Shown here: in pieces, positions 45,101 through 48,100 of the stretch
How the letters are laid out: each line of letters opens with the position of its first letter
How positions within the stretch are numbered: the first letter of the stretch is position 1
NCBI RefSeq assembly: GCF_013167455.1
Contig: NZ_CP038328.1
Length of the DNA: 64,000 nt
Origin: Escherichia coli O157:H7
Lineage (GTDB): Bacteria; Pseudomonadota; Gammaproteobacteria; Enterobacterales; Enterobacteriaceae
Reading direction: 5' to 3' (one strand)
Program-made: the position numbers

Positions 45101-48100
45101 TGATGATTTTCATCGTATACGCGCTGTATCTCTCTCTTCAGCCAGTCGTCGTGCTGCGCACGGGCACTGCGTTTATCCGGATGATGTCGCTGTTGCTGAC
45201 AATGGTAATACGTTGACGGGGCAATATGCAGTTCGCTGCATACCGGTCCGACCCCGTACTGCTCACGCAGCTTATCCAGCAGTGGCATCATTTTTTCCAG
45301 AGGCGGTCGAACTCCGCCTTCGCAAAATAAGCGGAAGCCTGGCGAAGGATATCGTTACTGCGGCGCAGTTCACGATTTTCACGTTCCAGCTCTTTCAGAC
45401 GCTGACGTTCAGCGCTGGTGAGCCCACCATCACCGCCCCCGGTATCCCGCTCATGCTGGCGAACCCAGACACGCAGAGTCTCCGGCGTACAGCCAATCTT
45501 TGGGGCAATGGAACAAATTGCCGCCCACTGTGAGTCATATTCATCCTGACTTTCCAGAACCATACGAATCGCCCGCTGACGGACTTCGGGGGAAAAACGA
45601 GTATTTTTAGTCATCCTGTTTACCTCTTTCTCAGGGAGTTTAGTCTCCAGGATTTCCGGGGCGGTTCAACACGATGGCTGAGGCGATTACCTACCGCCAG
45701 AAATTCAACGAACGTGAGGTGATGCTCTTATGGCCTGACTTCATCGCCTACAACCTGAAAAGTGGCAAAAACGAAACGTTCCCCGCGCCTGCTTATGCGT
45801 GCGGCCTTCGTGCGTACATTGACCATGAGCAGGGCTGGCACAAATCGCTGTCCAACGTTCCGGTTAAAAATGTGCTTGGGATGTCGAGGCATGTGTTCTG
45901 GTCGTTGCAGGCCGAAGACAGTGATGCCAACAGCCTCAACAACAAAGAAATCACGACCATTATTCGTCGCAACGGGTTCCGCTTCTGGGGCAACCGCACA
46001 CCGGAAACGAACGCCTACATCTTTGAGGTGTATACCCGAACCGCACAGGTGCTGGCTGATTCAATTGCGGAAGCGCAGTTTGAAACCATCGACAGTCCAC
46101 TGACACCTGCGAACGTGAAGGATGTTATCAGTGCCATCAGGGCAAAACTGGATTCACTGGTTACTGCCGGGAAACTGATTGGCGCGGAGTGCTGGTATGA
46201 CATCGAGGATAACAGCACCACGAATTTACGTCAGGGGCGTGTGCGTATTCGCTACAAATATACGCCCGTTCCTCCGCTGGAAGACATGGAGCTTTACCAG
46301 TCGTTTACTGATGAATTCTTTGGTCCCGCATTTGCGGTGCTGGGAGGTGCCTGATGGCTGTACCAAAACATCTTCGCTTTTTTACGCTGTTTGTGGATGG
46401 TGAAAACGAAGTGGGTAAGGTGACGTCCGTCACCCTGCCTAAACTGACGCGCAAAACCGACAGCTACCGGGGTGGTGGCATGATGGGTGCGGTAAGTATT
46501 GACCTCGGCCTGGACGACTCCGCGCTTGATGCGAGCTTTGTCATGGGGGGCGCAGTTCGTGAGCTGTTCCTGAAGTATGGCGGCACGATTGACGGCACGC
46601 TACTGCGTTTTGCGGGGGAATACTACACCGATGATGAAAGCGACCTGTATGAAGTCGAAATGCGCGGACGTGTGACGGAAATTGATATGGGGGAAGCCAA
46701 ACAGGGCGAAGCCACATCACACACTTACGCCATTAAAAACACCTACTACAAGCTGAGTGTTAACGATCGCCCGTTGTGGGAGATTGACCTGCTGAACTTC
46801 ATTTACCGGAAGGACGGCAAGGACATTGTGCCCGATCGCATCCGTTCCGCGCTTGGGCTTGGCTGATAAGTAATATGCAGGCGGCGCAGTGCGTCGCCTC
46901 TGACTGAAAGGAGTTTCCTGATGAAAGAGACGAAAAACATCGATACCGAAAACACGGTAGTTACTGACACTGTGAAAGAAACCAGTGAGCGTGGTGTAAA
47001 ACTTACCCAACCAATTGAGCGAGGCGGCGAAAAAATCACGTATGTGGAGATCACCGGGGCTATTGAGCAGGCTGGATCTCTGCGAGATTTGTCGCTGTCT
47101 GATGTGCTGAATCTGAAAGCGGAATCCATGTTTACGCTGCTGTCACGCGTGACATCACCGCGACTGGATGAAGTGACGATCAAAAAAATGGCATCCCGTG
47201 ACTTTATTCAGTTATGTGTGGTTGCCGTAAATTTTTTGAGCGGTGCGGACTCTGGCGGGAAGAACGAACAGGCGACGGAAGCCTGATCACGGTTGTGTGC
47301 TTTGAGCACATAGAAGACTTTGTGGCAGATATTGCCGTTATTTTTAACTGGTCGCCCGCCGAAATCTTCATGATGACGCCCGGCGAAGTGGTTAGCTGGC
47401 GTGAGCGGGCGGCACTTCGCAGCGGGAATGCAGACAATGAAGACTCTTGATATCCGGGTCGCTTTCAGCGCCGTTGACAGGCTGACCCGACCTGCCGAAA
47501 ACGCACGCCGCCTGATGGGGCAGTTTGGTGACTCCATCCAGCGAACGCAGGGGGCGATCAAAAATCTCGAGCGTCAGGCGCGATCATTTGAGCGCGCCCG
47601 CGACGCTGTCAGTAAAGCGGATGCTGGCATCGTGAAAGCACGACGCCAGCTTAACGCCCTTAATCAGTTACAACGCACGGGTACAGTGCTCAGCGAAAAA
47701 CAACAAAAGCTGATGCAGCAGTTAAGCACCCGGCTTGAACGCCTGAATGAATCGCGCACACGGGAAATTCAGAAAATGAGGGAACTTGGCGGAGAGCTGA
47801 AACGCCACGGCATTTCCCTGACAGGCAGCGATAACACCATTCAGCAGGCCATCAGACGCACCGAACAATACAACAACCAGCTTGAACGCGAACGGCAGGC
47901 GCTTGCGCGTGTAACGCAGGCGCGTGAGCGGTATTCGCACGCGCAGGAAACCGCGGGAAAACTGAAAACAGGTGGTGCGCTGGCAATTGGTGCGGCAGCG
48001 GCGGGCGGCTATGCTGCCGGGCGTTTTTTGCAGCCTGCGATCGGGTTCGGCAAAGAGATGTCCCGCGTTCAGGCACTGACGCGAATCGACAAAAACAGCC

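What the first reader, a model, noticed from the sequence alone, without database searches (positions are those of the whole stretch)
47214..47450. Conserved programmed -1 frameshift signal retained in the tail chaperone gene
A TTTTTTG slippery heptamer lies inside the gpE-like gene exactly where the -1 frame opens into an extension ORF, matching the E/E' arrangement of P2 and the G/GT arrangement of lambda. The signal is preserved even though the prophage is otherwise decayed.
Basis: partly seen in the sequence, partly recalled or inferred. Interest (0 to 1): 0.3.

Follow-up and report, generated by a model that had tools for sequence, protein, structure and literature searches.

The report
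P2-type tail chaperone frameshift site
This is the ordinary, well-known -1 ribosomal frameshift signal of the P2-family tail assembly chaperone (E / E+E'), sitting intact in a gutted P2-like prophage of E. coli O157:H7 because that stretch is still identical to a living phage, not because the remnant needs it.

Summary
Confirmed and ordinary. TTTTTTG lies at 47232-47238 in the register aaT TTT TTG (N104-F105-L106) of a 121-codon gene (46921-47286). That gene sits between the tail tube and tape-measure genes. The -1 frame is open from 47202 to 47450 and encodes a P2 GpE' domain (Pfam PF06528, 46.8 bits).

The 0-frame protein is a remote but secure homologue of P2 gpE (hhalign 99.85%), and its F-L aligns with the F-L of P2, where frameshifting on TTTTTTG is reported. 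All 95 relatives examined carry an in-register X_XXY_YYZ heptamer at this column. These are 15 phage records and 80 IMG/VR loci, forming 25 clusters at 90% identity.

No conserved downstream RNA structure was found, as reported for P2.

Two refinements:
- The window really carries a double site, A_AAT_TTT_TTG (47229-47238). Relatives that lost TTTTTTG keep only the upstream heptamer (A_AAT_TTT or C_CCT_TTC). One of them is the plaque-forming phage PhiSM.
- Being "preserved despite decay" is passive. The stretch 47202-47450 is identical to the viable phage P88. The decay around it is IS-mediated deletion plus a 1-nt deletion in the tape-measure gene.

The element is the P2-like remnant of O157, probably Sp13. 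Novelty: already known. Interest: low.

The parts
45674..46354 (+). C-terminal fragment (226 aa) of the tail sheath gene. Its 5' part and the late promoter region have been replaced by IS elements.
   Evidence: Pfam Phage_sheath_1 and Phage_sheath_1C. The sheath is intact (394 aa) in O157 strain TR01. The window lacks TR01 locus bases 10290-11314.
46354..46866 (+). Tail tube gene (FII homologue), directly upstream of the chaperone gene.
   Evidence: Pfam PF04985 Phage_tube, E = 1.3e-47, full length.
46921..47286 (+). 0-frame tail assembly chaperone gene (gpE homologue, 121 aa).
   Evidence: phrog_103 'tail protein', E = 2e-35. PF10109 Phage_TAC_7 scores only 17.2 bits, below the cutoff of 25, but 10 of 11 family members hit it, best E = 5.6e-10. 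hhalign against the P2/186 gpE family gives 99.85%.
47229..47238 (+). Slippery run A_AAT_TTT_TTG. It holds two overlapping in-register heptamers: A_AAT_TTT (47229-47235) and the P2-type T_TTT_TTG (47232-47238).
   Evidence: Sequence and register analysis. The homologous column carries a canonical heptamer in all 95 relatives.
47238..47450 (+). E' extension read in the -1 frame after the slip (70 codons plus TGA). The predicted fusion E+E' is 176 aa. The -1 frame is open from 47202.
   Evidence: PF06528 Phage_P2_GpE, E = 2e-12, 46.8 bits against a cutoff of 23. phrog_1756, E = 1e-43. tblastn hits to phages come as two pieces in two frames. The peptide is conserved right from the slip site.
47437..50240 (+). 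Tape-measure gene. Its ATG at 47437 overlaps the end of E' by 14 nt. It is a pseudogene because of a 1-nt deletion near 49396.
   Evidence: PF10145. tblastn with the P88 tape-measure protein changes frame between 49368 and 49413, and blastn shows a gap at 49396. RefSeq marks it 'frameshifted'.
50247..50741 (+). gpU homologue, the last surviving gene of the tail operon.
   Evidence: PF06995 Phage_P2_GpU, E = 1.5e-38.

Best explanation
The feature is the programmed -1 ribosomal frameshift site of a P2-family tail assembly chaperone gene pair (E and E+E'). It belongs to a P88-like (Xuanwuvirus) prophage remnant of E. coli O157:H7.

Proposed mechanism:
- Most ribosomes translating 46921-47286 terminate at 47284-47286 and make the 121-aa E protein.
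- A minority slip back one base on A_AAT_TTT_TTG (47229-47238), with the P- and A-site tRNAs re-pairing in the -1 frame.
- These ribosomes read on from 47238 to 47450 and make a 176-aa E+E' fusion.
- The E part would bind the tape-measure protein and the E' part would recruit tail tube subunits, by analogy with lambda G/GT.
- No RNA stimulator is involved. The heptamer alone sets a low, fixed ratio.

Shown here: the anatomy, the homology, conservation of the register and of the -1 ORF, and the absence of a conserved downstream structure.

Inferred: that slipping occurs on this mRNA, at what rate, and on which of the two heptamers.

In this particular remnant the signal is very probably idle. 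The sheath is truncated, the native late promoter region is gone, the tape measure is frameshifted, and the head, baseplate and fibre genes are absent. The signal is intact only because the DNA has not yet diverged from functional phage.
For: - Synteny and domains fit the family.
- hhalign against P2-type gpE gives 99.85%, with the slip-site F-L columns aligned.
- TTTTTTG is in the same register in P2, Wphi, 186, EtG, RSA1, YenM_31.17, Shewanella M16-3, SEN5, two Klebsiella phages, P88 and Chuche.
- All 80 IMG/VR loci have an in-register heptamer: TTTTTTG alone 19, AAATTTT+TTTTTTG 18, AAATTTT alone 18, CCCTTTC alone 15, CCCTTTT+TTTTTTG 8, TTTTTTA 2. All loci together (window, phage records and IMG/VR) form 25 clusters at 90% E identity and 13 at 70%.
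- Heptamer density is 95 per 3075 codon positions in the overlap, against 3 per 5496 upstream.
- Background codon use in these genes is TTT 58% of Phe, TTG 12% of Leu and T 23% of third positions. xxT TTT TTG would therefore be kept by chance in about 1.6% of lineages.
- Wphi and EtG records annotate the -1 join.
- P2 shifts on TTTTTTG and has no downstream hairpin (PMC3091744).
- No structure was found here either. The 62-nt fold has z = +1.64. The alignment fold of 13 relatives gives -0.06 kcal/mol. Rfam finds nothing at E/E'.
- The stretch 47202-47450 is identical to the plaque-forming phage P88 (PMC5285337).
Against: - No expression data exist for this locus, and frameshifting was not measured.
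- Pfam PF10109 is below its gathering score for the window's own E protein (17.2 against 25). NCBIfam finds nothing.
- In E. coli reporter assays U_UUU_UUG is not among the efficient motifs, and UUY A-site codons shift better than UUG (PMC4066793). The named heptamer may therefore not be the main slip site.
- In this remnant there is no sigma-70-like promoter between the IS and the gene, and the partner genes are defective. Biological use here is doubtful.
Confidence: 0.9

Rival explanations
1. The recoding event is the same, but in this lineage the ribosome slips mainly or also on the upstream heptamer A_AAT_TTT (47229-47235) rather than on T_TTT_TTG. The product would then read ...N-F-F-E-R... 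instead of ...N-F-L-E-R.... This is compatible with the best explanation and refines it.
For: P884B11, Shae_phiSM and 18 IMG/VR loci have AAT TTT ATG. TTTTTTG is destroyed in them and only A_AAT_TTT remains, while the -1 ORF is intact. Many of these loci lie in 34-38 kb contigs. PhiSM forms plaques (PMC6456863). A Klebsiella clade has only C_CCT_TTC one codon upstream. In E. coli assays the H_HH.U_UU.Y motifs, which include A_AAU_UUU and C_CCU_UUC, are in the efficient class, and UUY shifts better than UUG (PMC4066793).
Against: P2, 186 and most clades have no upstream heptamer (GGT/GCC before TTTTTTG), and P2 is reported to shift on TTTTTTG (PMC3091744). Nothing here measures which site is used. 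The Sharma values come from a different sequence context, with stimulators.
Confidence: 0.35
2. The -1 frame is reached by transcriptional slippage. RNA polymerase adds an extra U on the T6 run, so a fraction of mRNAs encode the fusion directly.
For: The site contains a run of six T. An inserted base would give the same frame change.
Against: Known bacterial slippage sites need longer homopolymers, about 9 or more (general knowledge, e.g. Baranov et al. 2005). Relatives with TTTTATG (run of 4) or CCCTTTC (run of 3) have no such run, yet they keep the exact X_XXY_YYZ register. That register matters only to a ribosome.
Confidence: 0.03
3. E' is a separate small protein translated from its own start. 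RefSeq annotates it this way: a 51-aa 'GpE family phage tail protein' starting at GTG 47295. On this view no frameshift is needed.
For: PGAP and several phage records annotate two separate CDSs.
Against: No Shine-Dalgarno-like sequence precedes GTG 47295. Of 25 cluster representatives, 11 have no ATG, GTG or TTG at all between the slip site and the conserved ADI motif, including the Klebsiella and RSA1 lineages. The -1 peptide is conserved from the first codon after the heptamer, as x-x-x-G-x-W-x-x-E-R-x-G-D-G, upstream of the annotated start. P2 is reported to make the fusion (PMC3091744).
Confidence: 0.04
4. The heptamer and the open -1 frame are coincidental, and nothing is recoded.
For: TTTTTTG is common in the window: 32 copies against about 22 expected. 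A single in-register heptamer in a 27-codon overlap is not rare by chance.
Against: An in-register heptamer is present at the homologous column in all 95 relatives, down to about 30% E identity. The heptamer is replaced rather than lost. The -1 frame encodes a Pfam domain.
Confidence: 0.01

Closest known systems
Bacteriophage P2 genes E and E+E' (FETUD tail operon; Christie et al. 2002, as cited in PMC3091744)
   Same: The position between FII (tube) and T (tape measure) is the same. The proteins are homologous in both frames. The heptamer T_TTT_TTG is identical, at the same alignment column and in the same register. The E' stop overlaps the start of T. There is no downstream hairpin (PMC3091744).
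   Different: The E part shares only about 30% identity and is longer: 121 aa against 91 aa, with a 0-frame tail of 15 residues after the site against 6. The E' linker is 29 residues before the ADI motif, against 19. A second heptamer, A_AAT_TTT, overlaps the first, whereas P2 has GGT upstream. Here the operon is broken and probably silent.
Escherichia phage P88 (Xuanwuvirus P88) gp47/gp46 and Citrobacter phage PhiSM
   Same: P88 differs at 3 bases across E/E' and is identical over 47202-47450. It is a viable, plaque-forming myovirus (PMC5285337). PhiSM is 88% identical and has the same architecture.
   Different: P88 is a complete phage, while the window holds only the sheath fragment through gpU plus the early region. 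PhiSM has TTTTATG and so keeps only A_AAT_TTT. None of these records annotates the frameshift.
Phage lambda G / GT
   Same: It is also a chaperone gene between the major tail and tape-measure genes, with a low-level -1 frameshift near its 3' end that makes a fusion in a fixed ratio. Neither product is found in the virion (PMC5009743).
   Different: It belongs to a siphovirus. Its heptamer is different (G_GGA_AAG, from general knowledge). Sequence homology was not tested here. The resemblance is one of arrangement and mechanism, not family membership.
IS3-family transposase orfA/orfB frameshift (present in the same window at 44401-45614, minus strand)
   Same: It is a -1 ribosomal frameshift on a slippery run inside an overlap of two ORFs.
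   Different: It uses an A-rich site and a strong downstream RNA stimulator, the ALIL pseudoknot (Rfam RF01497, 121.5 bits, 45217-45333). The E/E' site has no detectable stimulator.

Membership tests
P2-type tail assembly chaperone pair E / E+E' with -1 frameshift | The gene lies between the tail tube (FII) gene and the tape-measure (T) gene. | tested here: met
   Tube at 46354-46866 (PF04985). Tape measure from 47437 (PF10145). RefSeq annotation of identical DNA agrees.
P2-type tail assembly chaperone pair E / E+E' with -1 frameshift | The 0-frame product passes the curated Pfam model for gpE-type chaperones (PF10109 Phage_TAC_7). | tested here: not met
   It scores 17.2 bits, E = 0.0054, below the gathering score of 25. 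NCBIfam gives no hit.
P2-type tail assembly chaperone pair E / E+E' with -1 frameshift | The 0-frame product is homologous to P2 gpE by a more sensitive test. | tested here: met
   hhalign of an 11-member family alignment against an 8-member P2/186/RSA1 gpE alignment gives probability 99.85%, E = 1.2e-30, over 91 columns. Ten of 11 family members hit PF10109, best E = 5.6e-10. phrog_103, E = 2e-35.
P2-type tail assembly chaperone pair E / E+E' with -1 frameshift | The -1 frame extension carries the GpE' domain (PF06528 Phage_P2_GpE). | tested here: met
   It scores 46.8 bits against a cutoff of 23, E = 2e-12, covering profile positions 1-36 of 37.
P2-type tail assembly chaperone pair E / E+E' with -1 frameshift | A slippery heptamer X_XXY_YYZ lies in the 0-frame register inside the overlap, at the column homologous to P2's TTTTTTG. 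| tested here: met
   T_TTT_TTG at 47232-47238. The F-L columns are aligned with P2. The feature is conserved or replaced in all 95 relatives.
P2-type tail assembly chaperone pair E / E+E' with -1 frameshift | The E' peptide has no start of its own and is conserved from the slip site onward. | tested here: met
   Eleven of 25 representatives have no in-frame start codon before the conserved motif, and no Shine-Dalgarno-like sequence was found. The linker is conserved.
P2-type tail assembly chaperone pair E / E+E' with -1 frameshift | Both E and the E+E' fusion are actually produced, in a fixed ratio, and both are needed for tail assembly. | not testable with these tools
   This needs a reporter assay, mass spectrometry or phage genetics. 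It is reported for P2 only (PMC3091744, citing Christie 2002, which the library does not hold).
Stimulator-dependent -1 frameshift sites (dnaX, IS3 type) | A conserved downstream hairpin or pseudoknot 5-9 nt after the heptamer, or an upstream Shine-Dalgarno-like element. | tested here: not met
   The 62 nt downstream fold with z = +1.64, and five relatives give z from -0.7 to 0. RNAalifold on 13 relatives gives -0.06 kcal/mol with no covariation. Rfam gives no hit at E/E'. No Shine-Dalgarno-like run is visible upstream in the window (by eye).
Transcriptional slippage sites | A long homopolymer run (about 9 or more A or T) conserved among relatives. | tested here: not met
   The run is T6 here, T4 in the TTTTATG relatives and T3 in the CCCTTTC relatives.
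Lambda G/GT chaperone family | Sequence homology to lambda gpG/gpT. | not tested
   Only the arrangement was compared (PMC5009743). No lambda sequence was aligned.

The most novel reading that the evidence does not exclude
In the P88-like lineage the working slip site is a double heptamer, A_AAU_UUU_UUG. It would give the ribosome two consecutive chances to slip and yield two fusion isoforms (NFF-ER and NFL-ER). On this reading it is an evolutionary intermediate in a one-codon migration of the frameshift site. Sister lineages have completed the move and lost the ancestral P2 heptamer: A_AAT_TTT_ATG in PhiSM/P884B11, and C_CCT_TTC_TTG in a Klebsiella clade for which C_CCT_TTT_TTG would be the intermediate. 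That would be a documented case of slip-site turnover under selection for the frameshift itself rather than for a particular sequence.
Probability: 0.35. Interest if true: 0.3.

Novelty: already known. Interest (0 to 1): 0.12.

Why it matters
For the genome in hand it matters little. It is a textbook recoding signal in a dead tail operon.

It has some practical value. RefSeq/PGAP and most phage records split E' off as a separate 39-51-aa "GpE family" or "tail protein" CDS, instead of annotating a programmed frameshift. About a quarter of complete E. coli genomes (1374 of 5426) carry this segment with that annotation.

The comparative survey adds one small point. Within this clade the P2 heptamer can be replaced by a heptamer one codon upstream. 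This shows that the frameshift is under selection, not the TTTTTTG string. It also warns that motif searches for TTTTTTG alone will miss real sites.

Tried and rejected
- NCBIfam scan of E, E' and the fusion gave no hits.
- A PDB sequence search with the fusion gave only a chance match, SoxA at E = 0.84. No structure or fold search was run, because homology was already settled by hhalign.
- Rfam on 44000-48000 found nothing at E/E'.
- Search for a downstream stimulator. The immediate 48-62 nt are not more stable than shuffles. The 102-nt fold reaches z = -2.85 only because of a hairpin (about 47295-47312, GUGUGC-UUUGAG-CACAU region) that starts 56 nt after the heptamer. That is too far to sit at the ribosome entry channel, and the hairpin is not conserved outside the closest relatives.
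- Upstream Shine-Dalgarno-like stimulator. P2, 186 and RSA1 have AAGGTG or GAGGTG just upstream, but only about 4 nt away, and it encodes conserved K-V. The window has none. Rejected as a general feature.
- The primary paper on P2 (Christie et al. 2002, PMC135442) is not held. Its content is cited second-hand from PMC3091744.
- An exact match to the window's IS/sheath junction was sought in complete E. coli genomes and not found as one piece. The strain was therefore not identified. Naming the element Sp13 rests on Sp13 being the only P2-like prophage of O157 Sakai (PMC2669165) and is an inference.
- L027 carries TTTTATG on window-like flanks. It looked like an independent recurrence of the T-to-A change, but the locus is a mosaic of the two types, so independence cannot be claimed.
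- My automatic ORF finder mis-assigned RSA1, whose -1 frame is open far upstream. With the annotated start, RSA1 has TTTTTTG in register.
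Full report
**1. What is in the sequence**

The + strand reads ...GTA AAT TTT TTG AGC... with TTTTTTG at 47232-47238. It lies in the ORF 46921-47286 (121 aa). In that frame the codons are AAT (N104), TTT (F105) and TTG (L106), so the heptamer is in the canonical X_XXY_YYZ register.

The -1 frame is closed by TGA at 47199-47201 and is then open from 47202 to the TGA at 47448-47450. The 0 frame stops at 47284-47286. The two frames therefore overlap for 82 nt, and the heptamer lies 30 nt into the overlap.

After a slip the ribosome would read 47238-47450, which is 70 codons. The predicted fusion is 176 aa.

A second canonical heptamer, A_AAT_TTT (47229-47235), overlaps the first.

**2. Is it more than chance?**

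Taken alone, hardly. TTTTTTG occurs 32 times in the window against 21.9 +/- 4.5 in shuffles. An in-register heptamer somewhere in a 27-codon overlap is expected roughly one time in ten.

The comparative evidence is decisive. I collected 15 phage records, chosen from a spread of tblastn and blastn hits, and 80 IMG/VR loci found with an E' alignment. Every one has an in-register X_XXY_YYZ heptamer at the homologous position. With the window they form 25 clusters at 90% E-protein identity and 13 at 70%.

In these genes in-register heptamers occupy 95 of 3075 codon positions in the overlap. Upstream in the same gene they occupy 3 of 5496.

Background codon use is TTT for 58% of Phe, TTG for 12% of Leu, and T at 23% of third positions. 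It predicts xxT TTT TTG in about 1.6% of lineages that merely conserve x-F-L. It is found in 18 of 25 clusters.

**3. What the genes are**

- The upstream neighbour is a tail tube gene (PF04985, E = 1e-47).
- The downstream neighbour is a tape-measure gene (PF10145), followed by gpU (PF06995).
- Further upstream is the C-terminal 226 aa of a tail sheath.
- The -1 extension carries the P2 GpE' domain: PF06528 at 46.8 bits against a cutoff of 23, and phrog_1756 at E = 1e-43.
- The 0-frame protein is weak against Pfam PF10109 (17.2 bits against a cutoff of 25) and absent from NCBIfam. It matches phrog_103 at E = 2e-35, and 10 of 11 close and distant family members hit PF10109.
- A profile-profile comparison of its family with the P2/Wphi/186/EtG/YenM/Shewanella/SEN5/RSA1 gpE family gives probability 99.85%, E = 1e-30. 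AVNFLSG aligns to VVGFLSP, so the slip-site F-L falls on P2's slip-site F-L.
- tblastn of the conceptual fusion against phage genomes returns matches in two pieces, in two frames, in 52 records.

**4. Link to established knowledge**

In P2 a -1 frameshift at TTTTTTG yields E (91 aa) and E+E' (142 aa). No downstream hairpin is present in P2 or in its Burkholderia relatives (PMC3091744, citing Christie et al. 2002 and Xu et al. 2004). The primary paper is not held.

The Wphi and EtG records annotate the join as a -1 translational frameshift. The phage 186 record says orf52 is probably produced by a frameshift from orf51.

The lambda G/GT pair is the prototype of the arrangement. G and the G part of GT bind the tape measure. 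The T part binds the major tail protein. The ratio is about 30:1, and neither protein is in the virion (PMC5009743).

**5. Stimulatory elements**

None were found.

- The 62 nt after the heptamer fold no better than shuffles (z = +1.64). The same stretch in five relatives gives z between -0.7 and 0.
- RNAalifold on 13 diverse relatives, in a gap-free 110-nt alignment, gives -0.06 kcal/mol and no covariation.
- Rfam has no match at E/E'.
- A stable hairpin exists around 47295-47312, but it begins 56 nt downstream and is not conserved beyond the closest relatives.
- The near-invariant nucleotides downstream (for example GACGG) are explained by dual coding: G-D-G in the -1 frame, and the acidic tail of E in the 0 frame.

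**6. Rivals**

Independent initiation of E'. RefSeq annotates a 51-aa CDS from GTG 47295. This is not supported, for three reasons:
- No Shine-Dalgarno-like sequence precedes it.
- Eleven of 25 representatives have no ATG, GTG or TTG between the slip site and the conserved ADI motif.
- The peptide is conserved from the very first codon after the heptamer.

Transcriptional slippage does not fit. Relatives with TTTTATG or CCCTTTC have no homopolymer but keep the ribosomal register.

**7. A refinement: slip-site turnover**

Three groups of relatives carry heptamers other than T_TTT_TTG:
- P884B11, Shae_phiSM (PhiSM) and 18 IMG/VR loci have AAT TTT ATG. T_TTT_TTG is lost and only A_AAT_TTT remains.
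- Kp4845-1 and 15 IMG/VR loci have CCT TTC TTG, leaving only C_CCT_TTC.
- Eight IMG/VR loci have the double C_CCT_TTT_TTG, and two have T_TTT_TTA.

No locus that lost the P2-type heptamer lacks the upstream one.

Both P88 (double site, like the window) and PhiSM (upstream site only) are plaque-forming phages. P88 is documented as a myovirus with a contractile tail (PMC5285337, PMC6456863).

In E. coli reporter assays the H_HH.U_UU.Y motifs, which include A_AAU_UUU and C_CCU_UUC, are in the efficient class. UUY A-site codons shift better than UUG. U_UUU_UUG is listed as efficient only in the eukaryotic system (PMC4066793).

It is therefore quite possible that in the window's lineage A_AAT_TTT contributes, or even dominates. 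This is an inference and was not tested.

**8. The "preserved although decayed" claim**

The window is E. coli O157:H7 DNA. The 1147-bp tube-to-E' segment is 100% identical in many O157:H7 chromosomes and is present in 1374 of 5426 complete E. coli genomes. It lies next to the glyW-cysT-leuZ tRNA cluster.

Against phage P88, the window retains only two blocks:
- 45668-50747, the sheath C-terminus through gpU;
- about 53396-60561, the early and replication region.

The head, lysis, baseplate and fibre genes are absent.

Further damage is visible:
- The sheath 5' half and the divergent gpD fragment, both present in strain TR01, are deleted next to IS30 and IS3-family elements.
- The tape measure has a 1-nt deletion near 49396.
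- No sigma-70-like promoter lies between the IS and the gene.

This fits the published description of Sp13, the only P2-like prophage of O157 Sakai, which lacks most morphogenetic genes (PMC2669165). The identification with Sp13 is my inference.

The E/E' segment differs from P88 at three bases: one synonymous, S35G and S64N. None falls within 47202-47450.

The decay is by large deletions and one indel. Point divergence is about 0.6% here, so a 10-nt signal is expected to survive by default. Its survival says nothing about use in this host.

**9. Verdict**

The feature is a known kind of signal in a known family, in a defective prophage. Interest is low (0.12).

The most novel reading left open is the double-site and site-migration idea: probability about 0.35, modest interest.

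Noticed in passing
window 47229-47238; L004 843-852; L005 915-924; L006 828-837; IMG/VR loci L017-L096: Slip-site turnover among relatives. The P2 heptamer T_TTT_TTG is replaced by a heptamer one codon upstream, A_AAT_TTT (with TTTTATG) or C_CCT_TTC (with TTTCTTG). Double sites (A_AAT_TTT_TTG, C_CCT_TTT_TTG) look like possible intermediates. No locus lacks both heptamers.
   Followed up: partly
window 47295-47450 (= NZ_CP033605.1 WP_000333495.1; P88 gp46): RefSeq/PGAP and most phage records annotate E' as a free-standing 39-51-aa CDS ('GpE family phage tail protein') from an internal GTG/ATG, rather than as a programmed-frameshift join. Only Wphi, EtG and, partly, 186 annotate the frameshift.
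   Followed up: yes
window 44401-45614 (-), pseudoknot 45217-45333 (-): An IS3-family element (IS1203/IS629-like) lies directly upstream. It has its own orfA/orfB -1 frameshift (CTC TGG AAA AAA TGA) and an ALIL pseudoknot (Rfam RF01497, 121.5 bits). This is a second, stimulator-dependent frameshift signal 2 kb from the stimulator-free one.
   Followed up: partly
window 43262-44398 (+) and 45614-45674: An IS30-like transposase ORF abuts the IS3-family element. Relative to O157 strain TR01, the window lacks about 1 kb (TR01 locus 10290-11314) that holds a gpD fragment and the 5' half of the sheath gene. No complete E. coli genome in the collection shows this exact junction as one piece.
   Followed up: partly
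window 47437-50240, indel near 49396: The tape-measure gene is a pseudogene. A 1-nt deletion relative to P88 shifts the frame between 49368 and 49413. RefSeq marks it 'frameshifted' in O157 strains.
   Followed up: partly
window 47295-47312: A stable hairpin (GUGUGCUUUGAGCACAU region) makes the 102-nt fold unusually stable (z = -2.85). It starts 56 nt after the heptamer, coincides with PGAP's GTG start for E', and is conserved only in the closest relatives. It is probably incidental.
   Followed up: partly
window 50865-51470 (+): A serine O-acetyltransferase-like gene (RefSeq annotation) lies immediately after gpU, where P88 has a DNA invertase and tail fibre genes. It looks like a cargo ('moron') gene or part of the rearrangement.
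   Followed up: no
L027 (IMGVR_UViG_2534681835_000034) 810-1120: This locus is a mosaic of the window-type and P884B11-type E/E' sequences. It carries TTTTATG on window-like flanks, which shows recombination within the chaperone gene itself.
   Followed up: partly
L001 23405-23635 (TR01), corresponding to about window 57758-57988: A 'derepression protein' gene lies in the surviving early region. This is consistent with the P4 epsilon-like gene that was proposed to explain the unusual mitomycin inducibility of Sp13 (PMC2669165).
   Followed up: no
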